A program made the position numbers and the translations under genes. Below are positions 10,681 through 23,505 of a stretch of 24,000 nucleotides of DNA, in pieces. The notes beneath the pieces were generated by a model. That model saw nothing but the letters and a program-made list of their open reading frames with translations. It did not search any database and was not told the origin of the DNA. Position 1 is the stretch's first letter, and every line of letters begins with the position of its first letter. This DNA is from Desulforudis sp. (GTDB lineage: Bacteria; Bacillota; Desulfotomaculia; Desulfotomaculales; Desulforudaceae): assembly GCA_003604975.1 (NCBI GenBank), contig QZIR01000001.1, positions 6,034 through 30,033 on the forward strand, read 5' to 3'.

Positions 10681-11313
10681 GTGATGAGATTGAGGAACAT
10701 TAGCCTGCCTGCCCTTGACATTGGAATGGTGCGGGAGACTGCCCGAAATTGGCGGCCCTACCTGCTGGGTATGGGGGTTCTTTTGATGCTCTTTCTTGGT
10801 GTCTGGGGGGCGCTGGCGTCAGCCACCATCAAAGCCCAGGCTAATGTCCGTGACCTTCAGGAAAGGCGGGTCGTAGTGGAGCGGGAAGTAGCCACCCTGC
10901 AGGAATACGCCGACATCGAGGTCAGGGCGGTGAGCGCCGAAAAACTAGTCCAGCAGGCCCTGGGTACCAACCCCGACTGGCAGGCCCTGCTAACCAGTAT
11001 CGGGCGGGATCTCCCGAATGGTGTCTGGATAACCGAGTTTACGGCTTCATATAAAGCCGGATCCGGAGCCACGCAAGCAGACACAGCGACGGCAGGAAGT
11101 GGGGAACTGTTACTCCGTGGTTGGGGCGCCAACCATGCGGAAGTTGCCACGTGGGTGGACGGCATTGCAGTTTTACCGGGGCTCGCTGATGTCCGCTACC
11201 AGTTTACCAGCAAGGATAAAGTGGATGGTCGGGACGTGGTCCGGTTCGAGGTCAAGACCACCCTACTCCCGGGTGAGCCCTACCAGCCGGCAGTAAGAGG
11301 GGGGGTACGGTAG
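10681..11313 (+). CDS. pilN: Type IV pilus assembly protein PilN-like (TM + coiled coil + PilN core)
   Basis: Short cytoplasmic N-terminus (RNISLPALD), one TM helix (YLLGMGVLLMLFLGVWGAL), a coiled-coil segment, then LLTSIGRDLPNGVWITEFTA....LLLRGWGANHAEVATWVDGI, typical of PilN. The start is ambiguous (GTG 10681, ATG 10684 or TTG 10690). It is followed by pilO with a 1-nt overlap. Confidence 0.7.
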   Translation: MMRLRNISLPALDIGMVRETARNWRPYLLGMGVLLMLFLGVWGALASATIKAQANVRDLQERRVVVEREVATLQEYADIEVRAVSAEKLVQQALGTNPDWQALLTSIGRDLPNGVWITEFTASYKAGSGATQADTATAGSGELLLRGWGANHAEVATWVDGIAVLPGLADVRYQFTSKDKVDGRDVVRFEVKTTLLPGEPYQPAVRGGVR

Positions 11314-11876
11314 TGGACGAGTTAAAGGCTTTACTGGTGAAGATCCTGCCCTTTGCCCTCATCGCCGTTGTTCTCATCGGGATAGGCATTCTTATTCAGT
11401 CCCAGGTCCACGCCCTTGCGTATGCCATGAACGCTGCCGCGAACGAACAGTTGGCCATTGCCCAAGCTGAGGCCCGCTTACAGATCCTTCTTCAGTACAA
11501 GGCAAATGAATCGATTTTGAAGGAACGTATGGCCAGAGCGGAACGGCTTATCCCGGTCGAGGCCGCCGAGGGCACTCTCGTGAAAGACATCCAGGCCACG
11601 GCCGACCTCGCTAACACCAAGTTCGTTCAGGTCCGCTTCGACAAGTACATCCCGGGCCAAGAATACACTACAATCCCGTTGCAGATTAGCTTTGAGGGAC
11701 GCTACCAAGGTCTCCTGGTTTTACTGGACAGCCTCCGTGACCGTTCCCGCGCCGTCCGGGTCGATGAAATCAGAATCGGCCAGGGAAATCAAGCTCTACC
11801 CCAAATCAAAGCCGATATCAAGGCAAATGCCTTCTGCCGTGCGGGGGACAGAGCGGTACAACCCGCTAAACCTTAG
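11313..11876 (+). CDS. pilO: Type IV pilus assembly protein PilO-like
   Basis: GTG start overlapping the pilN stop (TAGTG). It has an N-terminal TM (ILPFALIAVVLIGIGILI), a coiled coil, then IPVEAAEGTLVKDIQ...YTTIPLQISFEGRYQGLLVLLDSL....VRVDEIRI, the PilO pattern. Confidence 0.7.
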   Translation: MDELKALLVKILPFALIAVVLIGIGILIQSQVHALAYAMNAAANEQLAIAQAEARLQILLQYKANESILKERMARAERLIPVEAAEGTLVKDIQATADLANTKFVQVRFDKYIPGQEYTTIPLQISFEGRYQGLLVLLDSLRDRSRAVRVDEIRIGQGNQALPQIKADIKANAFCRAGDRAVQPAKP

Positions 11877-11927
11877 TCGTGAAAAAATAAAACTCACCTT
11901 CCTGCTCAGGACTCAGAGTTCTCACAC

Positions 11928-12126
11928 TTAGTCGCGATCACAGGATGAATGGTCTCCCTGGAACACGTCGGCGTCCCACACGCCCTCGTGGATGTGGCCA
12001 TCGGGGAAGATCATCTTGCCGTGGCCGTGCATGTAGCCGTCCTTGAATTCGCCGACTAAAGTAAACAAACACAGCAATGCTTACTGCTAATAGGGACAAG
12101 ATAGCGGTTCGTGCTTTCATAATCAT
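11928..12126 (-). pseudogene. Small signal-anchored MORN-repeat protein gene interrupted by a +1 frameshift (or sequencing indel)
   Basis: GGAGGATGATTATG gives MIMKARTAILSLLAVSIAVFVYF in frame A, but the rest of that ORF is an Arg/Pro-rich out-of-frame-looking tail. The +1 frame from about 12060 reads (L)VGEFKDGYMHGHGKMIFPDGHIHEGVWDADVFQGDHSSCDRD and stops at 11928-11930, a clear MORN repeat (YxGxxxxGxxHGxGxxxxxxG). Confidence 0.55.
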
Positions 12127-12147
12127 CCTCCAAAGTCGGGCAATAGT

Positions 12148-12189
12148 GAAAAGGCTCCCCGGAAAACGATTCTCCCAGGGAACCTTTTC
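12148..12189 (-). terminator. Long imperfect hairpin downstream of the major pilin gene
   Basis: GAAAAGGCTCCCCGG (12148-12162) pairs with CCAGGGAACCTTTTC (12175-12189): 15 positions with 2 mismatches and a 12-nt loop. There is no clean U-tract, so terminator function is inferred from its position after pilA. Confidence 0.4.
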
Positions 12190-12190
12190 A

Positions 12191-12249
12191 ATAAGTTAAT
12201 AAGTTAAGTGCCTGGCACCGTTAGTTCTCTTAGTTCTCTCATGGCACCG
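12191..12249. repeat. Cluster of short tandem/direct repeats in the pilA 3' flank
   Basis: ATAAGTTA x2 (12191-12206); the palindrome GTGCCTGGCAC (12208-12218); and TGGCACCG (12213-12220) - T - TAGTTCTCT x2 (12222-12239) - CA - TGGCACCG (12242-12249). Confidence 0.8.
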
Positions 12250-12253
12250 ATTC

Positions 12254-12622
12254 CTAGTATGTATGGCCATTGGGGCATGCAGCAACTCCGTCAGTAATAG
12301 TTAGCGCACCACCGTCGGGACACGTTGGAGCGGCTTTAAGTAATCCGGCCTCAACTAGTGTAGATATGGCGTCCACGTCGGCTAGTGTGCGACCCGACCC
12401 GCCAGCAACCCATTGAGCAGCTGCGCCATCTACAGTTCTCAGTGAAGCTTGGCAGGCCCGTTCCGCAGCGTTTGACGTGACGTTATTGTACACGGGAATT
12501 GCAATGGCCACCAGGATACCGATGATGATCACCACGACCATCAATTCAACCAAGGTGAAGCCTTTCTGGCTCTTCAGAAGACCCTTTTCGCTCTTCATCG
12601 CGCAGGACATCCTGTAAAACAT
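12254..12622 (-). CDS. pilA: Type IV major pilin (prepilin with class III signal peptide)
   Basis: ...KSQKG/FTLVELMVVVIIIGILVAIAIPVY is the canonical prepilin cleavage/methylation motif plus hydrophobic alpha1-N. The mature part is ~101 aa with C-terminal cysteines (PTCPDG...AACPNG). AGGAGGTG lies 7 nt before ATG 12622 (21-aa leader); internal ATG 12598 would give a 13-aa leader. Confidence 0.9.
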   Translation of the reverse strand: MFYRMSCAMKSEKGLLKSQKGFTLVELMVVVIIIGILVAIAIPVYNNVTSNAAERACQASLRTVDGAAAQWVAGGSGRTLADVDAISTLVEAGLLKAAPTCPDGGALTITDGVAACPNGHTY

Positions 12623-12699
12623 CTAGTTTCACCTCCTTCCCAAAAAGGATCAATAATCTTAGCCAAACTGATATTGACTTTAGTAGTTCTTACTAGGTT

Positions 12700-12725
12700 A
12701 TACCAGGTACTTCCGATTTTTAGAC
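12700..12725 (-). promoter_or_regulatory. Candidate sigmaB-type promoter upstream of pilA
   Basis: The minus strand reads GTCTAA (12725-12720) - 14 nt - TGGTAT (12705-12700). The B. subtilis sigmaB consensus is GTTTAA-N12-15-GGGTAT, so each hexamer matches 5 of 6. It lies ~78 nt upstream of the pilA ATG. Confidence 0.4.
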
Positions 12726-12792
12726 ACATTAAAAAGAAAATCTTTGAAAACATCAGGGTTAAACCCAGACGCTTTCAAACTAAAAGAACTAG

Positions 12793-13509
12793 TTAAGCCA
12801 GATTATGGGCCATCTGGGTCAACCCACAGTGCAGCAGACGGGAAACCCGGCGCTGGCTGATACCCAGTTTCCTTGCTGCCTGGGCCTGGGTCAAGTCTTG
12901 GTAAAAAATCAGATACACGACCCTTCGCTGCAAGCCATTCAGGTGTTCTACCGCCTGGCGGACCGCGATCCGGTCCTCGATGGGCAGTTGGAAGCTTTCA
13001 TAGCGGATGCGCCTGATGCGCGATAGGTCTAGTTCGTCGAGGCTCACGCTGCCCGCCCGTAAAGCTTCCTGAACGCCTTCCTTTCGAATGTTGACTGCTT
13101 CGGCGATGGCCTCCAGGCTGGGGGGCTCGCCGCTACGCTGGAGCAACTTGTCTGATGCCCGGTGGATGCGCGCCTGCAGGTCGAACACCCAGCCCGGTCG
13201 GTCGAAAGAGGCTTCGCGGCGCAGCTCGTGGCGAATCTCGCCCATTATGCAATGCGAGGCGTAGGTAACGAACTTGACGTTGCGTTCCGGATCAAACCGT
13301 CGTAAAGCCTTCAAAAGACCCTCATATCCGGCCTGAACCAGGTCATCCGGAGGGCCGTTGCCCGAGAATAAGCGGGCAAAATGGTGCACCAGTTGGCTTC
13401 CCGATTCCACAACCCTACGTAGACGTTCTTCGTTACGGTCGATGAGATAGGTCTGGACTGCCGATTCCAGGTTTGGGTGTTTAGAAGGGTTTAGTGACGC
13501 ACTCATCAC
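12793..13509 (-). CDS. RNA polymerase sigma factor, group 3 (SigB/SigF/SigG/FliA-type), orphan
   Basis: 238 aa. Region 2 is DLVQAGYEGLLKALRRFDPERNVKFVTYASHCIMGEIRHELR. A region 3 helix follows, and region 4 is LQRRVVYLIFYQDLTQAQAARKLGISQRRVSRLL. GGGAGG RBS; start at GTG 13509 or ATG 13506. No anti-sigma or anti-anti-sigma gene is adjacent. Confidence 0.85.
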   Translation of the reverse strand: MMSASLNPSKHPNLESAVQTYLIDRNEERLRRVVESGSQLVHHFARLFSGNGPPDDLVQAGYEGLLKALRRFDPERNVKFVTYASHCIMGEIRHELRREASFDRPGWVFDLQARIHRASDKLLQRSGEPPSLEAIAEAVNIRKEGVQEALRAGSVSLDELDLSRIRRIRYESFQLPIEDRIAVRQAVEHLNGLQRRVVYLIFYQDLTQAQAARKLGISQRRVSRLLHCGLTQMAHNLA

Positions 13510-13584
13510 ATCTCAACCTCCCAATTGACGGTCCGACGTACTCGGGATGAACCATTATGTCAGAAAAGAATTCACACTTGTATG

Positions 13585-14802
13585 CTAGTTTCCGATTCTC
13601 TTGACCAGCTCCTCGATCTGGGCGATCTTTTCGGGTGTTTCCTCCACCCACAATACGTAGAAGGGGGTATCGAAACTACCGGACAAGTTGCGTGAGATAT
13701 GCATATTCCCAACCGGCACACCTGAGAGCTCACTCAATAGATGGCGTTTTGCGTTCAATTCCTCAAAGGCGTTTTTGTCACCGCCACCGGTAGCCGAGGC
13801 CACAGGCACCCGGATCTTCTTTCGGGTACCGTCAATACTGACCAAAGCGTTCCGCACCTGGCTTTCCAGGTACGGGGGACAGATCACCAGCAGTTCCTGC
13901 GTATACTCGGGATAGTTGAATGTGGTCGTGTTCACCTGAAAGGGGAATCCCGCCAGACGTTCCCGGGCGTCCTTGGCGGTGATGTTCTTCAGTTGATACA
14001 CGAAGACCTTACTTTCCCTTCCGTCCAAGGTATCGACTTCCCTGATCAGGGCTTCAACCTGGGCCCAGCGGGCAAACACCCTGGTGTCAAACACCAGTAG
14101 CCGGTTCTTCAGCTTTAGGGACTGCCTGGGCTTGATGCCAGCGTTCTCCAGGACCTCGAGCGCCCTTTCCGGGGAAATCTGGGTTAGGGTGATAGACCGA
14201 AAGTCCAGGGACATATCATTGACCGGCCTATCCACGGTGTTGATCAGTTCCTGCAGCTTGTGCAGCGCCTGTGGTGTGCCCTGGGCCCAGATGACGTTCA
14301 GACCGGGGTCGAGGGTGAGGCTGGTCAGGGGGATGTCGAGGGCGGTGATCAGGGTCTTGATTTCACCCGCGGGGACAAAAAGCAGGTCGAACCGGGTCAG
14401 GATCAGCTGCTTGAAAAAGCTGTTCTGCAATTGTTCCGGCTCACCGACAATAATCAAATCGCCTTCGCGCAGGTAGGCCAGACCCTGGCTCTGGAGAATC
14501 AGTTCCAGTGCCTGGACGGGAGATGAATCCTGGACCCGGAAGCTTACTTTGTCCGGCTCCACAATCAGGATGATACCCACATCCATCTTGATTGCGAGGG
14601 CGGTCAAGACGTCCCGCAGGTCAGCGTCCCGTACGTCCAGTGTGATGTTCTCACTACTCTGAGGGGCGGCTTCGGCCACACTAAGCCGGATTCTGTTAGC
14701 AATACTGGTGGCATCCTGGTTATCCCAGCCAGCGGCCATTAAGAGCAGGGCTACCGCACAAACGGCCACAATCAAGAGGCGGAAACCTTTATTGATAACC
14801 AC
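13585..14802 (-). CDS. Membrane-anchored PilQ-like protein made only of secretin N0 (STN) and N1-type (Secretin_N-like) domains; no secretin pore domain
   Basis: After a TM helix (FRLLIVAVCAVALLLMAAG) comes ITLDVRDADLRDVLTALAIKMDVGIILIVEPDKVSFRVQDSSPVQALELILQSQGLAYLREGDLIIV, an STN/N0 pattern as in PilQ. Three units of ~60 aa follow with the Secretin_N pattern (LTRFDLLFVPAGEIKTLITAL..., FRSITLTQISPERALEVLENAG..., VFVYQLKNITAKDARERLAGF...), then a degenerate fourth (..YVLWVEETPEKIAQIEELVKRI). The protein ends there, 75 nt before the sigma gene. The preferred start is GTG 14802 after AGGGGTGA. The ORF is open to ATG 14967, but that extension is AT-rich and looks non-coding. Confidence 0.75.
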   Translation of the reverse strand: MVINKGFRLLIVAVCAVALLLMAAGWDNQDATSIANRIRLSVAEAAPQSSENITLDVRDADLRDVLTALAIKMDVGIILIVEPDKVSFRVQDSSPVQALELILQSQGLAYLREGDLIIVGEPEQLQNSFFKQLILTRFDLLFVPAGEIKTLITALDIPLTSLTLDPGLNVIWAQGTPQALHKLQELINTVDRPVNDMSLDFRSITLTQISPERALEVLENAGIKPRQSLKLKNRLLVFDTRVFARWAQVEALIREVDTLDGRESKVFVYQLKNITAKDARERLAGFPFQVNTTTFNYPEYTQELLVICPPYLESQVRNALVSIDGTRKKIRVPVASATGGGDKNAFEELNAKRHLLSELSGVPVGNMHISRNLSGSFDTPFYVLWVEETPEKIAQIEELVKRIGN

Positions 14803-14814
14803 AGTCTCACCCCT

Positions 14815-14830
14815 AATCCATTGATGGATT
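14815..14830. promoter_or_regulatory. 16-bp palindrome (possible operator) at the 5' end of the PilQ-N-like gene
   Basis: AATCCAT-TG-ATGGATT has perfect 7-bp arms with a 2-nt spacer, too short to fold as an RNA hairpin. It sits 13 nt upstream of the preferred GTG start in the divergent pilB / pilQ-N-like intergenic region. Confidence 0.35.
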
Positions 14831-15056
14831 CCAACATTATCTAAAGATTCGCCATCTTTCCTGCATATCCTGTGCCCGCGAAAAAAATGGGAAGAGAATA
14901 GGAGAAATTTCTTTTCAATTAGTAATGATTCGCCAAATTTTTCCCTGGAAGAAGGGATTTTGGCCATGATCTAGAAACATATGGCATCTGGAACGGAATA
15001 CCGGGGATACGGAAACCTATGGATTTGCTTAAAGATAGAACGGGAAGTGTCTTCGA

Positions 15057-16742
15057 GTGACGGAAGCCAAGGCATCAAGCAAGCAACTCGGTGAACAGCT
15101 CCTGGAAAAGGGTCTCATCACCCGGGAACAGCTCTGGGAGGCCTTGCGCGTCCAGTCCAAGACTGGGGACCGGCTCGGTAACATCCTGGTAAAGATGGGG
15201 ATGGTCTCCCAGGACGAGGTGGACCAGATTCTCGGGCTGGCCCCGAGTGTTTCTTTGGATACTATCGACAGCGATCTCCTGAAGACCGTCCCGGAACAGC
15301 TGATCCGGAAGTACCTGGCCATTCCCGTGAAGCGGGAAGGCCAGAAGCTGATCCTGGCCATGGCCGACCCCTCGAACGTTCTGGCTGTAGATGATTTTCG
15401 GCTGATCCTCGGGTGCGAGGTGGAGCCGGTGCAGGTAGCGGCAGAGGACCTTGAGGCCGCGATCCAGAAACATTTTGGAATTCCCCAGTTCGACAAGGCT
15501 TTCGACGACTTTGACCTACAGATTGCCGGTGGGGACGAGGAAGAGCAAGACGAGGAAAACCTTATTGACGATGCGCCTATCGTTCGTTTGGTAAACTCGG
15601 TCTTTATGCAGGCCATCGAGATGAACGCCAGCGACATCCATATCGAGCCCCAGGAGACGGGGCTTAGAGTGCGCTACCGCGTGGACGGCGTGTTACGGGA
15701 AATCGCCCACCTGCCGAAAAAGATCCGGCCCGCCGTCATATCACGTATTAAGATCATGTCCGAGATGGACATCGCTGAGAAGCGGGTGCCCCAGGACGGC
15801 CGTATCCCACTTAGGGCCGGCAGGCGGGACTTCGACCTCCGGGTCTCCACCCTGCCGACCACGTACGGGGAGAAGGTGGTTTCCCGCCTGCTCGACAAGT
15901 CGGGTATGCAGAACTACCGGATCGAGCAGTTGGGCTTCCACCCGGAGAACCTGAAGAAGTTTCGCTCGGCGCTCCGTAACGCTTACGGGATGCTGCTGAT
16001 TACCGGGCCGACCGGCAGCGGCAAGACCACCACCCTCTACGCCGCACTGAACCAGATCAACACCATCGAACGGAATATCGTTACTGTTGAGGATCCGGTG
16101 GAGTATATGCTTGTCGGGATTAACCAGACCCAGGTCAACGTTAAGGCCGGAATGACCTTCGCGGCCGGGCTGCGCTCCATCTTACGGCAGGACCCCGACG
16201 TGATCATGGTCGGTGAGATCCGGGACGGGGAGACCGCGGACATCGCTATGCGGGCGGCCATTACCGGTCACCTGGTGCTTTCGACCCTGCACACCAACGA
16301 CGCCGCGGGGGCGGTCGGCCGCCTGGTCGACATGGGGGTGGAGCCGTTTATGGTCTCGGCCTCGCTTTTGGGGATCGTCGCTCAGCGCCTGGTGCGCCGT
16401 ATCTGTACCGAGTGTAAGGAGGCCTACGAGCTTCCGCTGCATGCTCCGGAGCGGCAGTTTATGGGTCTCGAATCCACCGCGCCAGTGATGCTCCACCGGG
16501 GCACCGGCTGCGGGCGCTGCGGGAATTCTGGCTATAAGGGCCGGGTTGCGGTCCATGAGGTCCTTATGGTTAACCCGGCAATTCGCCCGCTGATCTCAGC
16601 CAACAAGCCGGCCGATAAGATCAAGCAGAAGGCGGTTGAGCTGGGGATGATCACTCTCAAGGCGGACGGGGTCTACAAAGTGCTGGAAGGGCTGACCACG
16701 GTCGACGAGGTCATGCGCGTGGCCTACGTGGGCGAGGAATAG
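15057..16742 (+). CDS. pilB: Type IV pilus assembly (extension) ATPase PilB/GspE family
   Basis: It has an N-terminal MshEN/T2SSE_N-type domain (LGEQLLEKGLITREQLWEALRVQ...), Walker A GPTGSGKTTT, Asp/His boxes, Walker B DPDVIMVGEIRD and the tetracysteine motif CTEC...CGRCGNSGYKGR. Confidence 0.95.
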   Translation: MTEAKASSKQLGEQLLEKGLITREQLWEALRVQSKTGDRLGNILVKMGMVSQDEVDQILGLAPSVSLDTIDSDLLKTVPEQLIRKYLAIPVKREGQKLILAMADPSNVLAVDDFRLILGCEVEPVQVAAEDLEAAIQKHFGIPQFDKAFDDFDLQIAGGDEEEQDEENLIDDAPIVRLVNSVFMQAIEMNASDIHIEPQETGLRVRYRVDGVLREIAHLPKKIRPAVISRIKIMSEMDIAEKRVPQDGRIPLRAGRRDFDLRVSTLPTTYGEKVVSRLLDKSGMQNYRIEQLGFHPENLKKFRSALRNAYGMLLITGPTGSGKTTTLYAALNQINTIERNIVTVEDPVEYMLVGINQTQVNVKAGMTFAAGLRSILRQDPDVIMVGEIRDGETADIAMRAAITGHLVLSTLHTNDAAGAVGRLVDMGVEPFMVSASLLGIVAQRLVRRICTECKEAYELPLHAPERQFMGLESTAPVMLHRGTGCGRCGNSGYKGRVAVHEVLMVNPAIRPLISANKPADKIKQKAVELGMITLKADGVYKVLEGLTTVDEVMRVAYVGEE

Positions 16743-16779
16743 CCCAGCCGGAGAATCCAGAGAAAGAGAGGTCCCCGTA

Positions 16780-17928: not shown

Positions 17929-19143
17929 ATGAGTCAGCTGAAGTTCAAGTACAAGGCCCGGAACCAGTCTGGAAAGCTAGTCGGGGGCACCATCACGGCG
18001 GAGAGCGAGGCGAAGGCCCGGGCTCTGCTGCGCGAGCGGCGCTTCTTCGTGGTGGAGATCAAGACGGCGCCGCAGGCCAAGGGATCTTCGTCCCTGTTCG
18101 GCAGTAAGAAGATCACGGCAAAGGACCTGGCGGTCTTCTGCCGCCAGCTGGCCACGATGGTCCAGGCCGGGATGCCGCTCCTGACCTGCCTGAACGTGCT
18201 GGGGCAGCAGAGCGACAACACCACCCTCCGGGAGACCTCGGCTTCGATCGCCCAGTCGCTCGAGACCGGCAAGACCCTTTCCGAGTCCATGCGGGAGTAC
18301 CCGAAGATCTTCCCGAACATCTTCATCAGCATGATCGAGGCTGGTGAGGTGGCCGGCGCCCTGGATGAAGTCCTGGAACGGCTGGCCATTCATTTTGAAA
18401 AGGATGCCGACATCCGGTCCAAGGTGAAGGGGGCCATGATGATGCCGGCGGTGGTTATTGGGGTTGCCATTATCGCGGTGATCATTATCCTGACCTTTGT
18501 TTTACCGACCTTTATCAATATGTTGACCGATATGAACGTGCCCCTGCCGGCACCGACCAGGGCGACGATTGCGTTAAGCGAGTTCCTGCAGTCGTTTTGG
18601 TATATGGTCATTGCCCTGTTTGCCGGGGGCTTTATCTCTTTCAAGCGCTATGCGGCAACGGCCAAGGGGAAGCAGGTGGTTGACCGGGCGGTGTTAAGAC
18701 TACCGACCTTCGGAACCCTGATCCGGAAAATGGTGGTGGCTCGGGTCTGCCGGATCTTGGCATCCCTGGTCCGCAGCGGCGTGCCGCTCCTGCAGGCGCT
18801 GGCCATCGTCCGGAGCATCGCTGGAAACGAGGTTTTCGCGAGCGCGATCCAGACGGCCGAGAACAGCGTGAAAGAAGGTGAGGGGTTGGCCCCGCCCCTC
18901 GAGCGGAGCAAGGTTTTCCCGCCGATGGTGACCCGGATGATTGCGATCGGTGAGGACACCGGCGCATTGGATGCCCTCTTGGAGAAGGTTGCCCATTTCT
19001 ACGAACGGGAAGTGGACGACACGGTGTCCAACCTTTCCAAAATTCTGGAGCCGATGCTGATGGTCGGTATCGGGGGAATCGTCGGCTTTATCCTGATGTC
19101 GGTGTATCTGCCGATGTTCAGCATAGTTGGTTCAATGCAGTAG
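17929..19143 (+). CDS. pilC: Type IV pilus platform protein PilC (GspF family)
   Basis: 404 aa with two T2SSF repeats (FCRQLATMVQAGMPLL..., ILASLVRSGVPLLQAL...) and three TM segments. Confidence 0.95.
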   Translation: MSQLKFKYKARNQSGKLVGGTITAESEAKARALLRERRFFVVEIKTAPQAKGSSSLFGSKKITAKDLAVFCRQLATMVQAGMPLLTCLNVLGQQSDNTTLRETSASIAQSLETGKTLSESMREYPKIFPNIFISMIEAGEVAGALDEVLERLAIHFEKDADIRSKVKGAMMMPAVVIGVAIIAVIIILTFVLPTFINMLTDMNVPLPAPTRATIALSEFLQSFWYMVIALFAGGFISFKRYAATAKGKQVVDRAVLRLPTFGTLIRKMVVARVCRILASLVRSGVPLLQALAIVRSIAGNEVFASAIQTAENSVKEGEGLAPPLERSKVFPPMVTRMIAIGEDTGALDALLEKVAHFYEREVDDTVSNLSKILEPMLMVGIGGIVGFILMSVYLPMFSIVGSMQ

Positions 19144-19169
19144 GTTGGTGTGAACGGGAAGTGGTTTTC

Positions 19170-19652
19170 ATGCGGCCTGTACCCGGGATAAGAGACAGAC
19201 TTGACGGTATGAAACGGACCGCTGGCTTTACCCTGGTGGAACTGGCGGTACTGATGGTGGTGCTCGGGATCATGATCGCCATCGCTGTGCCAAGTGTCCA
19301 GAAGACCATCGATTCATATCGGTTAAAGACGGCTGCTGCCGAGATGGCCACCAACATCCGGCTGGCGGGGCAGGAAAGCATCAGCCGGGAATTGGAGTAC
19401 CGGATTGAGTTTAACATCGCTGGCAACCGATACACTGTTTTCCAGATGGTGTATGGCGGTGATGTAGAGATTGAGTGCGTTGAGATCAGAGGCCAGGTAA
19501 GCATGACCGGGACTGGTTTTTCCAGTAACCAGCTTACCTTCGGCAAGCAGGGCCGGCCTTCGGAAAGCGGGGATATCACCTTAACAAGTGATTTGGGTCA
19601 GGTCCGTAGGGTCAGTGTCGACGAGAGCGGCCGGGTTGCGATAGTTGACTAG
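19170..19652 (+). CDS. Minor pilin, FimT/GspH-like
   Basis: The prepilin motif is KRTAG/FTLVELAVLMVVLGIMIAIAVPS, followed by a GspH-like body ending ...GDITLTSDLGQVRRVSVDESGRVAIVD. The start is ambiguous (GTG 19161, ATG 19170 or ATG 19209). Confidence 0.8.
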   Translation: MRPVPGIRDRLDGMKRTAGFTLVELAVLMVVLGIMIAIAVPSVQKTIDSYRLKTAAAEMATNIRLAGQESISRELEYRIEFNIAGNRYTVFQMVYGGDVEIECVEIRGQVSMTGTGFSSNQLTFGKQGRPSESGDITLTSDLGQVRRVSVDESGRVAIVD

Positions 19653-19689
19653 TTGTCAACGGTTGCCCATTATCAAGGGAGATGACTTC

Positions 19690-20067
19690 ATGCTCCGAAT
19701 GGATAGCCTACGGAACAAAACCGGCGGTTTTACCCTTCTTGAAGTGCTCGTGGCGCTCGTGATCATCTCGATCCTGCTTACGCCCCTGGCTACAGGCTAT
19801 GGCCTATACCACCGGGCGACGGCGCAGGCCGACGGGGAGACACTCGCCGCGCTCCTGGCGCAGGACAAGATGGAGGAGATGAAGGGCAAGACGTATCCCC
19901 AGCTGGTCGACGGCTCCGATTCGGACACCCCCAGGTCCGGTTACAGCCGCACCGTCGAGGTCAGCACGGGCACCCTGGGGACGAAGACCATTGTGGTTAC
20001 CGTTACTTATCCGGTGCAGGAAGGGACCAGTCAGGTGACACTTCAGACAGAGAGGGCAAGGCGATGA
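19690..20067 (+). CDS. Minor pilin, PilV/GspI-like
   Basis: AAGGGAG RBS, then MLRMDSLRNKTGG/FTLLEVLVALVIISILL. The small body ends in a beta-rich segment. Confidence 0.8.
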   Translation: MLRMDSLRNKTGGFTLLEVLVALVIISILLTPLATGYGLYHRATAQADGETLAALLAQDKMEEMKGKTYPQLVDGSDSDTPRSGYSRTVEVSTGTLGTKTIVVTVTYPVQEGTSQVTLQTERARR

Positions 20068-20540
20068 CCCGATTGACCAGAGAAAGAGACCAACAAGGCT
20101 TCACCCTGGTGGAAATGCTGGTCGCGGCGGTCGTCCTGCTGCTGGTGCTGTCCGTCGCCAATGCTCTCTTCTATGAATCCGTCGTCTCCTGGCGTAGCGG
20201 CGAAGCCCGCATGGATGTGCGCGAGGGTCTGCGCCTGGGTCTTGACCGGATGTCGCGGGAATTACGGACGGCCCAGCGGGTGACCGATATGCAGAGTGAC
20301 AGCATCGAGTTTATGGTCGTGAAGGATGACGGGACCGAAATCTCTGTGCAGTACTACGTAAACCTGAGTCAGGAGCTTGTGCGGGGAACAGACGAGGAAG
20401 ACCTGGTGTTGGTAACAGGGGTTGACGACCTTGAGTTTACCTACCTTGAGGGAAACCGGGTGATCCTGGTCAGACTCCGCGGCACGGCGGGAGACCAGAC
20501 CGTTGAATTTACCACCAGGGTCGCTCTGCGTACCCAGTAG
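20064..20540 (+). CDS. Minor pilin, PilW/GspJ-like
   Basis: ATGA overlap with the preceding gene. The motif is MTRLTRERDQQG/FTLVEMLVAAVVLLLVL, followed by a GspJ/PilW-like region (EARMDVREGLRLGLDRMSRELRTAQRV). Confidence 0.75.
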   Translation: MTRLTRERDQQGFTLVEMLVAAVVLLLVLSVANALFYESVVSWRSGEARMDVREGLRLGLDRMSRELRTAQRVTDMQSDSIEFMVVKDDGTEISVQYYVNLSQELVRGTDEEDLVLVTGVDDLEFTYLEGNRVILVRLRGTAGDQTVEFTTRVALRTQ

Positions 20541-20554
20541 TTTTTCGGGAAAGG

Positions 20555-21808
20555 GTGGGTTGCGTGTTTCGGATCACCGGCCAGCGGGGCCAGGCAATGA
20601 TCATGGCGCTTCTGATTATGGGGGTGGGCCTTGTGGTGACCTCCGCGCTGGCGACTATGGGTACCGGGGCGATCAAGATCACCCGTTCCCACGCCGCCGA
20701 CATCAGGGCCTACTACATTGCCGAGGCGGGGATGGAGCGGGCTCTGGCCCAACTGCGGCTCCAGCCTTCGTGGAACGGTTTTAAGGACGGGAGTGGCACG
20801 GACCGGTGGGTGGATTATGGTGAAGGGCAGTTCAAGATTGAAATGGAGCCGAACGAGTTTACAGGTTGGGACACCCAGGAAAGGACTGTGACAATCACTT
20901 CTACCGGCCGTTACCTTGTTTCCGGGGAAACGGCTCAAAAGACCCTTGTTGCACTGGTTAAGGTTAGGCTGCACGATGCATTGTGGAACTGGCCCGGGTT
21001 GTTTGTGGACGGTTCTTCGGCTGTAAGCATCGGCGGCAATACCACCTTAGAGATAACAGAGGACGCCGGCGTACTTTCCGGCAAAGTATACGTTCGGGGT
21101 AACCTTTCTATTTCCGGGAGTGGGGAACTCAGGGCAGATATCCTGGCTGTCGAGAAAGAACTCTCCGTGCAGAAGGTCAACCAGCTGTATGCACAAGAAG
21201 CAAGAGCGTACACAATGTCTGCTTCCACAATTGAAAAAATCAGACCGACGGTCCCTGTAATCATTAGTGACTGGAACCCGGGGGATGAGGAGATTCCGGA
21301 CGCCGTCTTCACGAGTGATATGAAGGAGTACTATGCACAGCTTGCCGCAGATCCTGGTATAACGATATGGGATCAGGACGGGTTGAAAGATATGTCAGGT
21401 ATCTATCAATTGGATGGGCTCTACCGGTGCAACGGTCCACTGGATTTGAAGTCCGGCACCTATTCGGGGCGTGGTACGATCATCGTCACCGGGGATGTCG
21501 GGTTTTCGTCGGGGAACACACTTGTAAAGGCCGATAAAGACTCGTGTCTCACGATTATAACACCTACCGGCACCGTGACCTTGGGCGGGGGGGAAACCCT
21601 GGGTGCAAACGTGATTGCACACAAGCTTCGTCTGAACGGGAAAGCGTCGATCCTCGGAATCGCAATGGTGGAGGAAGTTGAGTTTAATGGCGGCGGGAAC
21701 AAGGTCAACTTTAGCCTTAATAACCTGTTTGCGGAGGGAAGCGACATGGCCCTGCCCGGAACGACCATTACCATTGGGAGTTGGAAAGAGAAACACGGTA
21801 TTTTTTAG
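20555..21808 (+). CDS. PilX-N-domain protein with a large beta-helix-like C-terminal region (candidate pilus tip/priming component)
   Basis: QRGQAMIMALLIMGVGLVVTSALATMG....AADIRAYYIAEAGMERALAQL fits the PilX_N pattern. The C-terminal 250 aa carry repetitive G/N/S-rich beta-strand motifs (GNTTLEITEDAGVLSGKVYVRGNLSISGSGEL; GTIIVTGDVGFSSGNTLV; GTVTLGGGETLGANVIAHKLRLNGKASILG). The start is GTG 20555 or GTG 20564. Confidence 0.7.
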   Translation: MGCVFRITGQRGQAMIMALLIMGVGLVVTSALATMGTGAIKITRSHAADIRAYYIAEAGMERALAQLRLQPSWNGFKDGSGTDRWVDYGEGQFKIEMEPNEFTGWDTQERTVTITSTGRYLVSGETAQKTLVALVKVRLHDALWNWPGLFVDGSSAVSIGGNTTLEITEDAGVLSGKVYVRGNLSISGSGELRADILAVEKELSVQKVNQLYAQEARAYTMSASTIEKIRPTVPVIISDWNPGDEEIPDAVFTSDMKEYYAQLAADPGITIWDQDGLKDMSGIYQLDGLYRCNGPLDLKSGTYSGRGTIIVTGDVGFSSGNTLVKADKDSCLTIITPTGTVTLGGGETLGANVIAHKLRLNGKASILGIAMVEEVEFNGGGNKVNFSLNNLFAEGSDMALPGTTITIGSWKEKHGIF

Positions 21809-21817
21809 ATCGGGGGA

Positions 21818-22948
21818 GTGGGTGTGAAGCTGAACACCAGGATTGACATCAAGGAGCTTGTCGGGAGGCTGTTGCCGAAGCAGACGCTGTTTGTGGCGGT
21901 GGACTACGGTACCCGCTGGATCAAGACGGCCTCGGTGAGCATTGCCGGACCAAAGCCAATGCTCCTGCAGCTTTCGCGGGTGGCGCAGCCTCTTTCCGGC
22001 GCGGACGAGCCTGACCAGGAGGCCCGGGTGGCACGCCTGGCGGAGGCGGTGGAACTGGCGGGGATCAAGAACCAGGAGGTCATCGCTACGCTCAGCGCGG
22101 ATAAGGTGATCACACGCCACATCCAGCTCCCGATAATACCCGAGAAAGAACTGGCCTCCGCGGTGAGCTTCGAGGCCGAGAAGCTGATCCCGATCCCCCT
22201 TTCCGACCTCATCGTCCGCCACGTCAAGCTGGGTGAGTCCGAAGGTGAGGAGGGCCGACAGCAGGAGGTATTATTGGCGGCTGTGCCTATCGAAGTGGTG
22301 TACGGCTTCTACGAGATGTTCGTCCAGGCCGGCGTGGTTATTTCCGCCCTCGACCTGCCCTCTCTGGCCCTGTGGCGGGCGTTGAGCGGCGTGATCGGCC
22401 CCGGTGTCCGGCCGGACGGAGTGATCGCAATCGTGGACATCGGGGCGGTGAACACCACCCTCATCGTGGTGGATCAGGGTTCACTGCTGTTCTGGCGTTC
22501 ACTGGCGGTCGGGGGAGACATGCTCACAAAATCGATGGCCGACACGTACACGACCAGTTTTGAAGAAGCCCAAAAGCTGAAGGAAGAAAGCGGGAAGATC
22601 CTGTCCGCCGAGGAGGCGGCCAACGTGATCTCGCCGGAGGAAATGCAGTTGGACTTCTCCCTCCGCGACGGACTGGGTGAGATCGTCAAGGAAGTCCGTC
22701 GCTCCCTCGACTTCTATGCCGGTACCAGGGGGGCCAGGCCGGTACAGAAGATTCTCCTCAGCGGGGGTACCAGTAATCTCAAGGGGTTTGTGCCCTTTCT
22801 GACCGACGCCCTTGAGCTTCCTGCAGAGATCGGGATGCTGCCGGTGGATGCGCCCCCAGGGACCGAGCAGGAGATGCCCTATCGTGACCCGGCGATGTTT
22901 ATATCTGTCGGACTGGCCCTCCGGGAAGCCAGTGTCAACCTAATTTGA
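21818..22948 (+). CDS. pilM: Type IV pilus assembly protein PilM (actin-like ATPase fold)
   Basis: 376 aa, with FVAVDYGTRWIK, AVSFEAEKLIPIPL, AIVDIGAVNTTLIVV and LLSGGTSNLKGF, which are PilM/FtsA-like phosphate and adenosine motifs. The start is GTG 21818 or GTG 21824, after GGGGGAG. Confidence 0.9.
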   Translation: MGVKLNTRIDIKELVGRLLPKQTLFVAVDYGTRWIKTASVSIAGPKPMLLQLSRVAQPLSGADEPDQEARVARLAEAVELAGIKNQEVIATLSADKVITRHIQLPIIPEKELASAVSFEAEKLIPIPLSDLIVRHVKLGESEGEEGRQQEVLLAAVPIEVVYGFYEMFVQAGVVISALDLPSLALWRALSGVIGPGVRPDGVIAIVDIGAVNTTLIVVDQGSLLFWRSLAVGGDMLTKSMADTYTTSFEEAQKLKEESGKILSAEEAANVISPEEMQLDFSLRDGLGEIVKEVRRSLDFYAGTRGARPVQKILLSGGTSNLKGFVPFLTDALELPAEIGMLPVDAPPGTEQEMPYRDPAMFISVGLALREASVNLI

Positions 22949-22968
22949 ACGCAGGGGATGGGGGTCGT

Positions 22969-23505
22969 ATGTACAAAGTCAACCTCTTGCCTGATGAACT
23001 CCAGAAGGGCGCCTTGGTGGACCTGGGACGAATCAAGAAACTGGCGGCGGTGGTAGTCATTGGCCTGGTTGTAATCGGCGGATTTGGCTTCTACCTTGTC
23101 AAAGACTACTCCCGCCTGACACAGCAGGCCCAGGTCAGTCCCGACCCCGCTCCGGTTGCGGCGGAGTCCGGGACGGCGGCAGGGAAAGAGGACGCGAAAA
23201 AGGCACACCACGTCCTGCCGGAAACCACGCGGGTCATAGACAAGGAAGAGGCGGAGTTCCAGACCGAGCCCCAGCAGCCGGACGGGGTAACCGACCCGTT
23301 TGTCGGTCCGATGGTCCTCACCGGTGTGGTCTACAGCGGCGGTGACGGAGACCTGGCCATTATCGAGGCCGGCAAAACGGCCTACGTCGTCAACCAGGGA
23401 GACACTGTCGCCGGGGTTTGGACGGTAGCGCAGATTGGCAGGGACGCCGTGGTATTGGAAGGCTCGGAGGAGCGGAAGATGCGCCTGGAGCTGACCGGCA
23501 GGTAA
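22969..23505 (+). CDS. Hybrid pilus alignment protein: PilN-type N-terminus (NLLP motif + TM) fused to a PilP/GspC-HR-like C-terminal domain
   Basis: MYKVNLLPDELQK is a PilM-binding-type motif. It is followed by a TM helix (LAAVVVIGLVVIGGFGFYLV) and a Pro/Glu/Ala-rich linker. The C-terminus reads TDPFVGPMVLTGVVYSGGDGDLAIIEAGKTAYVVNQGDTVAGVWTVAQIGRDAVVLEGSEERKMRLEL, the DPF...L.G......A.I.....Y.V..GD.....V..I....V.L pattern of PilP/GspC. The ORF is open from TTG 22945. Confidence 0.65.
   Translation: MYKVNLLPDELQKGALVDLGRIKKLAAVVVIGLVVIGGFGFYLVKDYSRLTQQAQVSPDPAPVAAESGTAAGKEDAKKAHHVLPETTRVIDKEEAEFQTEPQQPDGVTDPFVGPMVLTGVVYSGGDGDLAIIEAGKTAYVVNQGDTVAGVWTVAQIGRDAVVLEGSEERKMRLELTGR

What the first reader, a model, noticed from the sequence alone, without database searches (positions are those of the whole stretch)
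10681..23505. T4aP-like locus in a probable monoderm that retains the full diderm-style alignment subcomplex (PilM/N/O/P + PilQ N-domains)
The locus encodes PilB, PilT, PilC, a major pilin, four minor pilins, PilM, PilN-like and PilO-like proteins. Unexpectedly it also has both a PilP-like domain protein and an N0-containing secretin-N protein. In diderm systems the PilP (or GspC HR) domain docks onto the secretin N0 domain. Both partners being present without a pore domain suggests that this trans-envelope contact is conserved and functional here. The architecture is also unusual. pilN/pilO sit about 10 kb from pilM, separated by an oppositely oriented block (MORN gene, pilA, sigma factor, pilQ-N-like). 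No prepilin peptidase (pilD) is present in the window.
Basis: inference. Interest (0 to 1): 0.7.

Follow-up and report, generated by a model that had tools for sequence, protein, structure and literature searches.

The report
Pore-less PilQ paired with PilP
A type IV pilus gene cluster from a spore-forming Firmicute of a class reported to lack an outer membrane keeps the inner half of the Gram-negative pilus channel (PilQ without its pore) and its docking partner PilP, a pair that reviews of the field say single-membrane bacteria lack.

Summary
The window comes from a Desulforudis-labelled MAG. It encodes PilB/T/C, a pilin, four minor pilins, PilM, PilN and PilO. It also encodes a 405-aa protein ("QN") made of a signal helix, a secretin N0 domain and four N1-like domains, with no secretin pore. 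A 178-aa membrane-anchored protein ("P186") ends in a domain with the PilP/GspC-HR fold.

In relatives (Desulfotomaculia, heliobacteria, Dethiobacter, Clostridia) the order is pilM-pilN-pilO-P186-QN, as in Gram-negative bacteria. P186 lies directly upstream of QN in 54 of 59 loci. The only two loci without P186 also lack N0. Both genes are under purifying selection. No family member examined carries a pore domain. Some carry an N-terminal LysM peptidoglycan-binding domain where Gram-negative PilQ has AMIN.

The window's layout is a lineage-specific rearrangement. Here P186 follows a second-type pilM and has gained PilN's PilM-binding "NLLP" motif, which the window's PilN has lost.

Most likely QN forms a ring conduit in the cell wall, tethered to the membrane platform through an HR–N0 contact. 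That contact, ring formation and the monoderm status of this genome were not tested. Imam et al. (2011) noted "PilQ homologs" in such operons. I found no description of the missing pore, the PilP partner or the co-loss. Verdict: new variant of a known machine.

The parts
10681..11313 (+). pilN-like gene (210 aa). The PilN C-terminal domain is kept. The N-terminal INLLP PilM-binding motif is degenerate ('RNISLPALD').
   Evidence: Pfam PilN 26.6 bits, above the gathering score. A PilN N-terminus HMM aligns only from model position 12 onward. It is homologous to the PilN genes of the pilMNOPQ clusters in 47 loci.
11313..11876 (+). pilO-like gene (187 aa)
   Evidence: Pfam PilO 41.9 bits and T2SSM_b 31.3 bits. 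Homologs in 50 loci.
12254..12622 (-). Major pilin candidate (122 aa) with a prepilin cleavage/methylation motif
   Evidence: N_methyl 36.9 bits. TIGR02532 35 bits. A pilin follows QN in the canonical loci.
12793..13509 (-). SigB/F/G-family sigma factor, a conserved member of the cluster
   Evidence: TIGR02980 134.8 bits, below its cut-off. Present in 30 related loci, in the canonical ones between pilC and pilM. It is distinct from the spoIIAA-spoIIAB-sigF operon downstream.
13585..14802 (-). QN: a pore-less PilQ-like protein (405 aa, GTG start at 14802 preceded by AGGGGTGA). It has a signal/anchor helix, an N0 domain and four N1-like beta-alpha-beta-beta-alpha domains. There is no secretin barrel.
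   Evidence: AlphaFold model mean pLDDT 83.3.
14443..14646 (-). N0 (STN) domain of QN, residues 53-120
   Evidence: Model secondary structure. The family profile matches PilQ N0 of N. meningitidis, V. cholerae, P. aeruginosa and M. xanthus at 3.8e-12 to 1.9e-8. An N0 HMM scores 1e-34.
13591..14403 (-). Four N1-like (ring-building-motif type) domains of QN, residues 134-190, 202-256, 265-323 and 330-404
   Evidence: structure; secretin N-domain matches; domain HMMs. The C-terminal pair is family-specific and lies at the C-terminus in nearly all of the 98 clusters found among 1.84 billion proteins.
14803..15056 (.). Divergent intergenic region between QN and pilB, presumably holding promoters (not analysed)
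   Evidence: Read directly from the sequence.
15057..16742 (+). pilB extension ATPase
   Evidence: T2SSE 471 bits plus MshEN.
16780..17877 (+). pilT retraction ATPase
   Evidence: T2SSE 173.8 bits. Best matches are second-cluster PilT proteins, for example 2e-178 in L023.
17929..19143 (+). pilC platform protein
   Evidence: T2SSF 215 bits.
19161..21808 (+). Four minor pilin genes: GspH/FimT-like, PilV/GspI-like, ComGF/GspJ-like, and PilX_N/GspK-like
21818..22948 (+). pilM of the 'second-cluster' type
   Evidence: PilM_2 127 bits. The best locus match outside the window's own lineage (L001, 3e-187) is a separate PilM in L003 (1e-60), against 1e-7 to 1e-22 for the PilMs inside pilMNOPQ clusters.
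22969..23505 (+). P186: a PilP/GspC-HR-like protein (178 aa, ATG at 22969 preceded by GGGGATGGGGG). It has a PilN-type N-terminal motif, a transmembrane helix, a disordered linker carrying an invariant LPxTxR motif, and a C-terminal HR beta-domain.
22969..22998 (+). 'MYKVNLLPDE': a PilN-type PilM-binding motif. Among 56 P186 homologs it is found only here and in L001.
   Evidence: PilN N-terminus HMM from model position 4, 12.9-14.1 bits, the same range as bona fide deltaproteobacterial PilNs. Weak match to the second-cluster PilN of L003, E 0.022.
23041..23100 (+). Transmembrane helix of P186 (residues 25-44)
   Evidence: Hydrophobic stretch inside predicted helix 19-52. The position is conserved in the family.
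23215..23232 (+). Invariant LPxTxR motif in the linker (L83, P84, R88). Candidate PilN/PilO-binding segment (inference).
   Evidence: Invariant columns in the 36-sequence alignment A2.
23293..23502 (+). HR (PilP/GspC homology region) beta-domain, residues 109-178
   Evidence: pLDDT 81-93. The top six Foldseek matches are PilP and GspC-HR. Profile hits to 2lnv, 3oss_C, 2ivw and 4av2_M.

Best explanation
This is a type IVa pilus machine in a Firmicute of a class reported to lack an outer membrane. It has kept the envelope-spanning half of the Gram-negative machine but lost the outer-membrane pore.

**QN.** QN is exported. Most family members have a Sec-type signal peptide and a few have a lipobox. 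It consists of a PilQ-type N0 domain followed by four N1-like ring-building domains. By analogy with the periplasmic rings of secretins, it probably oligomerises into a stacked-ring conduit around the pilus in the wall zone.

**P186.** P186 is anchored in the cytoplasmic membrane by one helix. It presents a PilP/GspC-type HR domain that docks on N0 and so tethers the conduit to the PilM/N/O/C platform.

**Relatives.** In some relatives an N-terminal LysM domain fixes QN to peptidoglycan, in the position where Gram-negative PilQ carries AMIN domains.

**This lineage.** A rearrangement placed P186 behind the pilM of a second pilus cluster. P186 acquired PilN's PilM-binding N-terminal peptide, which the window's own PilN has lost. 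The platform-to-conduit link would therefore run PilM to P186 to QN directly, with PilN/PilO as accessory partners.

**Shown:** domain identities, gene order, co-occurrence and co-loss, purifying selection, and absence of a pore domain in the family.

**Inferred:** ring formation, the HR-N0 contact, the location in the wall, PilM binding by P186, and origin by truncation of an ancestral full PilQ after outer-membrane loss.
For: **Domain identities.**
- QN model: pLDDT 83, N0 plus four N1-like domains, no barrel.
- Foldseek matches to the N-domains of GspD, XcpQ, InvG and PilQ at 1e-9 to 1e-5.
- The QN family profile is closest to PilQ N0.
- In the 34-member alignment, Secretin_N is found in 34, STN in 30, LysM in 7 and the Secretin pore domain in 0.
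- P186 HR domain: PilP and GspC-HR are the top sequence and fold matches. An iterated profile reaches the small gene just upstream of true secretins in 11 deltaproteobacterial loci at 1e-12 to 1e-15. Pfam run on one of these, L060, gives Secretin 139 bits.

**Gene order and co-occurrence.**
- The canonical order pilM-pilN-pilO-P186-QN-pilin is found across Desulfotomaculia, heliobacteria, Dethiobacter and Clostridia.
- P186 is adjacent to QN in 54 of 59 loci, and about a quarter of these have 4-nt overlaps.
- N0 and P186 are present together in 56 loci, counting the window, and absent together in 2. Neither ever occurs alone.

**Selection and pore absence.**
- dN/dS is 0.09-0.19 for QN and 0.10-0.49 for P186.
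- No secretin-domain ORF lies within 10 kb in any Firmicute-type locus.
- The family-specific C-terminal module gives 98 clusters among 1.84 billion proteins. It is almost always at the very C-terminus. The six outliers or long members checked have no Secretin domain.

**Peptidoglycan link.** LysM lies N-terminal to N0 in seven of the ten relatives scanned.

**Motif transfer.** Only the window and L001 P186 carry the NLLP motif, and the window PilN lacks it.

**Envelope.** Desulfotomaculia and heliobacteria are reported to lack LPS and BamA genes and to be monoderm or thin-walled descendants of diderm ancestors (PMC11448272).
Against: - No interaction test was possible.
- Ring oligomerisation of N-domains without a barrel is assumed, not shown.
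- The outer-membrane status of this particular MAG was not checked, and only 10 kb on each side of each locus was seen. A pore gene elsewhere cannot be excluded.
- The individual Pfam scores for STN (24.5-25.1 bits) and T2SSC (22.8 bits) in the window proteins are below the gathering scores.
- The PilN-motif match on P186 is weak, at 12.9 bits and E 0.026.
- The two co-loss loci are close relatives, so they represent one evolutionary event.
- Four loci are labelled Sumerlaeota and one Acidobacteriota. The envelope of those organisms is unknown.
Confidence: 0.6

Rival explanations
1. Evolutionary leftovers. QN and P186 are decaying remnants of a diderm ancestor's PilQ and PilP and no longer contribute to the pilus.
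For: The pore domain is gone. The host class is described as descended from diderm ancestors. The cluster is being rearranged in this lineage, and in L001 the in-cluster sigma gene is reduced to a 52-aa remnant.
Against: ORFs are intact in about 57 loci from several classes. dN/dS is 0.09-0.19 for QN and 0.10-0.49 for P186. Adjacency is tight, with overlapping stop and start codons. There have been new domain gains: LysM and a variable number (1-4) of N1-like repeats. N0 and P186 were lost together rather than piecemeal.
Confidence: 0.07
2. The host does have an outer membrane or an equivalent layer, and the pore is supplied by a separate gene elsewhere (a split secretin). QN is then just the periplasmic half of an ordinary two-part channel.
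For: Only 10 kb on each side of each locus was examined. Diderm spore-formers exist among Firmicutes. Some relatives have outer proteinaceous layers. Several loci are labelled as non-Firmicute phyla.
Against: No secretin-domain ORF was found in any of the 59 loci. None of the family members scanned with Pfam has PF00263, and the family's C-terminal module ends the protein in nearly all 98 clusters. The literature reports no BamA, OmpH or Lpx genes in the atypical Gram-negative-staining members of Desulfotomaculia and heliobacteria that it analysed. LysM fusions point to peptidoglycan anchoring.
Confidence: 0.08
3. The module serves something other than guiding an external pilus. Examples are a short pseudopilus for secretion or DNA uptake, with QN's N0/N1 domains binding DNA, or a sporulation-stage channel between two membranes, controlled by the in-cluster SigF-like sigma factor.
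For: The named hosts belong to classes known as endospore formers, and sporulation genes lie next to the window. The in-cluster sigma is of the SigB/F/G type. Ring-building-motif folds are used by sporulation channels, and PilQ N-domains bind DNA in Neisseria and Thermus (both from established knowledge).
Against: The cluster has pilT, a pilin and a full minor-pilin set typical of retractile type IVa pili. The true sigF operon is separate. QN's closest relatives are PilQ N0 domains, not SpoIIIAG or SpoIIIAH.
Confidence: 0.15
4. Origin by horizontal transfer. The PilQ-containing cluster was acquired from a Gram-negative donor, as Imam et al. 2011 proposed, and then truncated. It is not a vertically inherited remnant of a diderm Firmicute ancestor.
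For: [quoted passage not shown] The N0 motif pattern also retrieved deltaproteobacterial secretins at 23-27% identity.
Against: The same tree grouped them with Halothermothrix orenii, whose order, Halanaerobiales, is a diderm Firmicute lineage. The family is spread over several deep Firmicute classes with conserved synteny. No phylogeny was made here, so this remains open. It concerns origin, not mechanism.
Confidence: 0.25

Closest known systems
PilMNOPQ alignment subcomplex of diderm type IVa pili (P. aeruginosa, M. xanthus, N. meningitidis)
   Same: Relatives have the same gene order, pilM-N-O-P-Q. PilM, PilN and PilO domains are present. The PilP HR fold is present. The N0 and N1 domains are PilQ-type, and the closest sequence relatives are PilQ N0.
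   Different: There is no secretin beta-barrel and no AMIN domains. There are four N1-like domains instead of one. The PilP-like protein is anchored by a transmembrane helix rather than a lipid. The host class lacks an outer membrane. In this window the operon is split, and PilN's PilM-binding motif sits on the PilP-like protein.
GspC-GspD N0 contact of the type II secretion system (PDB 3OSS)
   Same: A bitopic inner-membrane protein whose HR domain binds secretin N0. P186's HR domain superposes on 3oss_C with TM 0.79, rmsd 1.6 A and 30% identity, and QN matches 3oss_D. NCBIfam GspC_delta scores 31 bits.
   Different: There is no PDZ or coiled-coil domain after the HR. The context is a pilT-containing pilus cluster, not a T2SS. 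The partner has no pore.
Thermus thermophilus PilQ with stacked N-domain rings (PMC5745081, PMC4463427; the abstracts were seen, the ring count is from my own knowledge)
   Same: Several consecutive N-type domains that form a tall stack of rings across a wide wall zone.
   Different: The Thermus protein ends in a genuine secretin domain in an outer membrane.
Type IV pili of model monoderms (Streptococcus sanguinis, Clostridium perfringens)
   Same: PilB/T/C, PilM/N/O, a pilin and minor pilins in a bacterium without an outer membrane. The window's motor and minor-pilin block resembles the second clusters found alongside pilMNOPQ clusters in some related loci.
   Different: Those systems are described as having no PilP and no secretin-related protein (PMC6916266). 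This one has both.
'PilQ homologs' in pil operons of D. reducens and P. thermopropionicum (Imam et al. 2011, PMC3244431)
   Same: The same protein family. The P. thermopropionicum SI protein is hit P0036.
   Different: That paper recorded only the presence of a PilQ homolog and suggested horizontal transfer. It did not mention the missing pore domain, the PilP-like partner, LysM variants or co-loss.

Membership tests
Type IVa pilus PilMNOPQ subcomplex | PilM: cytoplasmic actin-like protein (PF11104) | tested here: met
   PilM_2 127 bits and FtsA 54 bits for 21818-22948.
Type IVa pilus PilMNOPQ subcomplex | PilN with an N-terminal INLLP peptide that binds PilM, a transmembrane helix and a periplasmic domain | tested here: inconclusive
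   The PilN domain is present (26.6 bits). The N-terminal motif is degenerate in the window PilN, which aligns only from HMM position 12. The motif is found on P186 instead.
Type IVa pilus PilMNOPQ subcomplex | PilO (PF04350) | tested here: met
   41.9 bits.
Type IVa pilus PilMNOPQ subcomplex | PilP: a beta-sandwich HR domain encoded next to pilQ | tested here: met
   Fold and profile matches to PilP and GspC-HR. Adjacent to QN in 54 of 59 related loci. In the window itself the two genes are about 8 kb apart.
Type IVa pilus PilMNOPQ subcomplex | PilP is a lipoprotein | tested here: not met
   The P186 family has an N-terminal cytoplasmic stretch and a transmembrane helix, with no lipobox. This is GspC-like topology.
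Type IVa pilus PilMNOPQ subcomplex | Physical PilP HR to PilQ N0 contact | not testable with these tools
Only genomic co-occurrence and co-loss support the contact.
Secretins (PilQ/GspD/InvG) | N0 (STN) and N1 (Secretin_N) periplasmic domains | tested here: met
Secretins (PilQ/GspD/InvG) | C-terminal secretin domain (PF00263) forming the outer-membrane beta-barrel | tested here: not met
   Zero of 34 family members. No barrel in the model. No hit with a secretin-domain HMM in any Firmicute-type locus. The C-terminal module ends the protein in nearly all 98 clusters. QN is therefore not a secretin.
Secretins (PilQ/GspD/InvG) | Multimeric ring assembly | not testable with these tools
   No oligomer prediction was available.
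PilQ of type IVa pili | N-terminal AMIN peptidoglycan-binding domains | tested here: not met
   No AMIN hit. LysM occupies the equivalent position in 7 of 34 alignment members and 7 of 10 further relatives. The window protein has neither.
GspC (type II secretion) | Transmembrane helix plus HR domain | tested here: met
   T2SSC scores 22.8 bits in the window protein, and 29.2 bits (above the cut-off) in the L049 homolog.
GspC (type II secretion) | C-terminal PDZ or coiled-coil domain and a T2SS gene context (GspD-M, no PilT) | tested here: not met
   The protein ends with the HR domain. The cluster has pilT and pilM/N/O.
Monoderm type IV pilus machinery as described in reviews | Absence of PilP and of any secretin-related component | tested here: not met
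   Both are present. The review statement is in PMC6916266.

The most novel reading that the evidence does not exclude
When Firmicutes lost the outer membrane, some lineages did not discard the secretin. They cut it down to its periplasmic rings and kept PilP. This created a cell-wall conduit for type IV pili that is tethered to the membrane and bound to peptidoglycan, with LysM replacing AMIN and a variable number of ring domains. In the window's lineage PilP additionally captured PilN's PilM-binding peptide, giving a direct PilM-PilP-PilQ(N) axis. If so, this would be a channel-forming component of the kind asked about for the open question of how Gram-positive pili cross the wall. It would also be a molecular fossil of the diderm-to-monoderm transition, and a warning that 'PilQ' hits based on N-domains are not valid outer-membrane markers.
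Probability: 0.35. Interest if true: 0.8.

Novelty: new variant of a known kind. Interest (0 to 1): 0.62.

Why it matters
**It contradicts the reviews I read.** They state that monoderms have neither a secretin nor PilP, and they use that absence to argue that PilMNO is not an 'alignment' complex (PMC6916266; PMC6668835).

**It bears on an open question.** How pili pass the wall of single-membrane bacteria, and whether a channel-forming protein exists, is described as unclear (PMC5007114). A conserved, selected PilP plus pore-less PilQ pair in several Firmicute classes offers a concrete, testable candidate for such a conduit.

**It bears on envelope evolution.** It gives a possible intermediate state for what happens to trans-envelope machines when the outer membrane is lost.

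**It affects marker-based inference.** PilQ has been used as a diderm marker in reconstructions of ancestral envelopes (noted in PMC8871954). N-domain-only homologs could mislead such inferences.

**It offers a simpler experimental system.** The PilP-N0 contact could be studied here without a membrane-embedded barrel.

Tried and rejected
- **Co-fold of the HR domain with N0-N1.** I built 35 locus-paired chimeras joined by a Gly-Ser linker.
- **Word-indexed homolog searches for P186.** They returned only 4 and then 15 proteins. The P186 model therefore rests on a 14-sequence alignment, and only the C-terminal domain is confident.
- **Are the L035/L037 proteins a PilP-anchor::N1-N4 fusion?** The P186 family HMM aligned their transmembrane segment and 'DPF' motif in the right order, but with negative bit scores. 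This is not significant and is kept only as a lead.
- **Is the N-terminus of window P186 derived from a second-cluster PilN?** Only weak matches were found: E 0.022 to the L003 PilN and 12.9 bits to a PilN N-terminus HMM. This is suggestive, and it is supported by gene position.
- **Does any protein carrying QN's C-terminal module continue into a secretin domain?** None of the six outliers or long members checked does. Two continue into DUF4352 or DUF3862 instead.
- **Melville & Craig 2013.** The paper was not held, so I cannot say whether it discusses these homologs.
- **Whole-genome checks for pilD, a full secretin, BamA or Lpx genes.** These were not possible.
- **No phylogeny** was built to separate vertical inheritance from horizontal transfer.

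Full report
**What is in the window.**
- pilN-like, 10681-11313: Pfam PilN 26.6 bits, above the gathering score.
- pilO-like, 11313-11876: 41.9 bits.
- A pilin, 12254-12622(-).
- A SigB/F/G-family sigma factor, 12793-13509(-).
- A protein with Secretin_N (47-48 bits) and STN/N0 (24.5-25.1 bits, just under the 28.4 cut-off), 13585-14802(-).
- pilB, pilT and pilC.
- Four minor pilins, 19161-21808.
- pilM, 21818-22948.
- A small protein, 22969-23505, with weak T2SSC (22.8 bits) and GspC_delta (31 bits) matches.

A GAF-HD protein starts right after this cluster. The rest of the window holds queuosine biosynthesis genes, SurE, a flippase, an EF-G paralog and DUF3307. No prepilin peptidase is present. 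Shine-Dalgarno sequences support the GTG at 14802 (405 aa) and the ATG at 22969 (178 aa) as the true starts. The identical locus occurs on 23 contigs from several sources (3 shown: a JGI metagenome and two NCBI MAGs). The 405-aa protein is 100% identical to one from a 'Desulforudis sp.' MAG. The dacF-spoIIAA-spoIIAB-sigF operon and a GerA gene lie just downstream, so the organism is an endospore-forming Firmicute.

**The N0 protein (QN).**
- An alignment of 34 homologs gave an AlphaFold model with mean pLDDT 83. It shows an N-terminal hydrophobic helix and a low-confidence linker. An N0 fold follows at residues 53-120, then four consecutive beta-alpha-beta-beta-alpha domains (134-190, 202-256, 265-323, 330-404). 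There is no beta-barrel.
- Foldseek against the PDB returns only secretin N-terminal regions: InvG, GspD, XcpQ and PilQ N0, at E 1e-9 to 1e-5. The hits include GspD from the GspC-GspD complex 3OSS.
- A family profile searched against PDB sequences is closest to the N0 of type IVa PilQ: N. meningitidis 3.8e-12, then V. cholerae, P. aeruginosa and M. xanthus.
- Across the 34 members, Secretin_N is found in 34, STN in 30, LysM in 7 and the Secretin pore domain PF00263 in none.
- The family-specific C-terminal two-domain module was searched against 1.84 billion representative proteins and gave 98 clusters. In nearly all of them the module ends the protein. The six outliers or long members checked have no Secretin domain, and two carry DUF4352 or DUF3862.
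- Most members have Sec-type signal peptides, and 5 of 34 have a lipobox-like cysteine.
- QN is therefore a PilQ-derived protein that is not a secretin.

**The PilP-like protein (P186).**
- Word-indexed searches found few homologs, all annotated as hypothetical proteins. Homologs were easy to find in related loci.
- The 36-sequence alignment shows a basic N-terminus, one transmembrane helix and a variable linker. It also shows an invariant LPxTxR motif, a DPF motif and a conserved C-terminal domain with the classic HR pattern.
- The family profile hits only GspC-HR (2lnv 6.5e-4, 3oss_C 8.4e-4) and PilP (2ivw 5e-3, 4av2_M 1e-2) among solved structures.
- The model's C-terminal domain (pLDDT 81-93) has six best Foldseek matches, all PilP or GspC-HR. 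They are M. xanthus PilP, ETEC GspC-HR (TM 0.79, rmsd 1.6 A, 30% identity), N. meningitidis PilP and three P. aeruginosa PilP entries.
- An iterated profile of the domain also reaches the small gene immediately upstream of true secretin genes in 11 deltaproteobacterial loci, at E 1e-12 to 1e-15. Pfam run on one of these secretins (L060) gives Secretin 139 bits.
- In topology P186 resembles GspC (transmembrane helix plus HR) more than lipoprotein PilP.

**Related loci.** A genome scan with the QN alignment returned 71 loci. Fifty-nine are of the pore-less type. They come from Desulfotomaculia (Desulforudis, Desulfotomaculum, Desulfoscipio, Sporotomaculum, Desulfotruncus, Desulforamulus, Desulfovirgula) and heliobacteria. 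Others come from Dethiobacter, Clostridia-labelled MAGs (Ruminiclostridium, Thermoclostridium) and Gracilibacteraceae. A few MAGs are labelled Sumerlaeota or Acidobacteriota.

Mapping the window's proteins onto all ORFs of these loci shows a conserved order: pilB-pilT-pilC-sigma-pilM-pilN-pilO-P186-QN-pilin. This is the Gram-negative pilMNOPQ order. A second arrangement, P186-QN-pilT-pilC-sigma-pilM-pilN-pilO-pilB, occurs in Dethiobacter and Clostridia.
- P186 lies within 150 nt upstream of QN on the same strand in 54 of 59 loci, and about a quarter of these have 4-nt overlaps. Two more lie at 170-192 nt. One (L001) is rearranged like the window. Two (L035, L037) have no P186.
- In those two loci, and only there, QN also lacks N0 and starts directly with N1. 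The contingency is 56 with both (counting the window), 2 with neither and 0 with one alone. The two co-loss loci are close relatives, so this is one event.
- Their N-termini carry a transmembrane segment and 'YPGDPFRLPRML', which recalls P186's DPFxGPMxL. This hints at a deletion that fused the PilP anchor to N1-N4. The match is not statistically significant.
- dN/dS between close pairs is 0.09-0.19 for QN and 0.10-0.49 for P186.
- No secretin-domain ORF occurs in any of these loci.
- LysM sits N-terminal to N0 in seven of the ten relatives scanned from Dethiobacter, Clostridia and Gracilibacteraceae loci. The number of N1-like repeats varies from 1 to 4.

**Why the window looks odd.** The window and a 71%-identical MAG (L001) share a derived arrangement.
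- The pilB/T/C, minor-pilin and pilM block is of the 'second cluster' type. The window PilM matches a separate PilM in L003 at 1e-60, against 1e-7 to 1e-22 for PilMs inside pilMNOPQ clusters. The window PilT matches a second PilT in L023 at 2e-178.
- From the pilMNOPQ-type cluster only pilN, pilO, the pilin, the sigma factor, QN and P186 remain.
- P186 now follows the second-type pilM and begins 'MYKVNLLPDE'.
- A PilN N-terminus HMM detects this motif only in the window and L001 P186 among 56 homologs. The scores, 12.9-14.1 bits, are in the range of genuine deltaproteobacterial PilNs. The window's PilN aligns only from model position 12, so it has lost the motif.
- The N-terminus also weakly resembles the second-cluster PilN of L003, at E 0.022.
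- I infer a recombination that joined a pilN 5' end to the pilP-like gene. This inference rests on short, weak matches plus gene position.

**Mechanism proposed.** These steps are inferred.
- After export, QN oligomerises through its N-domains into stacked rings around the pilus in the wall zone, as the periplasmic parts of secretins do.
- N0 is held by the HR domain of membrane-anchored P186.
- The P186 linker (LPxTxR) may bind PilN/PilO, as the N-terminal segment of PilP does in Pseudomonas (my own knowledge).
- Here the P186 N-terminus binds PilM.
- LysM variants attach the stack to peptidoglycan, as AMIN domains do in diderm PilQ.

The rivals are in their own section: functionless remnants, a pore encoded elsewhere, a role in sporulation, DNA uptake or secretion, and horizontal origin.

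**Comparison with the literature.**
- Pelicic (2019) states that monoderms have neither a secretin nor PilP.
- Denise et al. (2019) treat the secretin as absent from monoderms and lost several times.
- Antunes et al. [quoted passage not shown]
- Imam et al. (2011) did report PilQ homologs in pil operons of D. reducens and P. thermopropionicum, and they proposed horizontal transfer. The passages I retrieved do not mention the missing pore or a PilP partner. The P. thermopropionicum protein belongs to the present family (P0036).
- A 2024 survey describes members of Desulfotomaculia as thin-walled, Gram-negative-staining lineages and heliobacteria as Gram-negative-staining monoderms. Both lack LPS and BamA genes. 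It places the deep-branching lineages, Desulfotomaculia among them, as descendants of diderm ancestors (PMC11448272). This fits a truncated-remnant origin.
- Seven full-text searches found no description of a pore-less PilQ plus PilP module. Subscription-journal papers are not covered.

**Verdict.** This is a new variant of the type IVa pilus machine. Its existence was hinted at in 2011, but it has not been characterised in the literature I could search. The key physical claims (HR-N0 docking, ring formation, absence of any pore or outer membrane in this genome) remain to be tested. Interest 0.62.

Noticed in passing
window 12793-13509 (-); related loci L003-L047: A SigB/F/G-family sigma factor is a conserved member of the pilus cluster. 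It is present in 30 related loci, in the canonical ones between pilC and pilM. The genuine spoIIAA-spoIIAB-sigF operon lies separately, about 3.5 kb past the window end. In L001 only a 52-aa remnant of the in-cluster sigma is left. It may be a dedicated pilus regulator.
   Followed up: partly
L035:8887-9987 and L037:2216-3298: These are the only two loci without a PilP-like gene. Their QN homolog also lacks N0. It begins with a transmembrane segment followed by 'YPGDPFRLPRML', which resembles the DPFxGPMxL motif of P186. This could be a deletion that fused the PilP anchor directly to N1-N4. The HMM match is not significant.
   Followed up: partly
L026, L034, L048-L050, L054, L056 (QN genes): QN variants in Dethiobacter, Clostridia and Gracilibacteraceae carry a LysM domain N-terminal to N0. 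The number of N1-like repeats detected ranges up to 4 across the family, so the putative stack height varies between lineages.
   Followed up: partly
P0130 and P0126 (from the representatives search): Rare family members replace or extend the C-terminal module with DUF4352 or DUF3862 domains instead of ending there.
   Followed up: no
L024, L039, L040, L055 (labelled Candidatus Sumerlaeota); L038 (labelled Acidobacteriota): The same pore-less P186-QN-pilT-pilC-sigma-pilMNO-pilB cluster occurs on contigs assigned to non-Firmicute phyla, one of them 299 kb long. This could be misbinning, mislabelling or horizontal transfer.
   Followed up: no
window 11928-12126 (-): The 'MORN gene' is a 49-aa ORF with one MORN repeat (32.7 bits). 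It overlaps, in another frame, a 62-aa ORF that starts with a signal/TM-like segment. This may be a small frameshifted gene.
   Followed up: no
window 23562-24000 (+), continuing in L072:10594-11718: A GAF plus HD (HD_5, HD-GYP-like) protein is encoded immediately after P186. It may be a cyclic-nucleotide signalling protein placed next to the pilus genes.
   Followed up: no
window 22969-23505 versus 10681-11313: The PilM-binding NLLP motif sits on the PilP-like protein and is degenerate on PilN. The motif appears to have moved between two subunits of the same machine. The same arrangement is seen in L001.
   Followed up: yes
A1 alignment, N-termini of QN homologs: Five of 34 QN homologs have a lipobox-like cysteine after the hydrophobic region. 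The rest look like Sec signal peptides. The mode of anchoring may differ between lineages.
   Followed up: partly
window 7840-9861 (+) and 2189-5114 (+): An EF-G paralog with a TTG start and a queuosine biosynthesis gene set (PTPS, QueC, DUF366, a radical SAM protein, GTP cyclohydrolase I) lie upstream. They are unrelated to the pilus locus.
   Followed up: no
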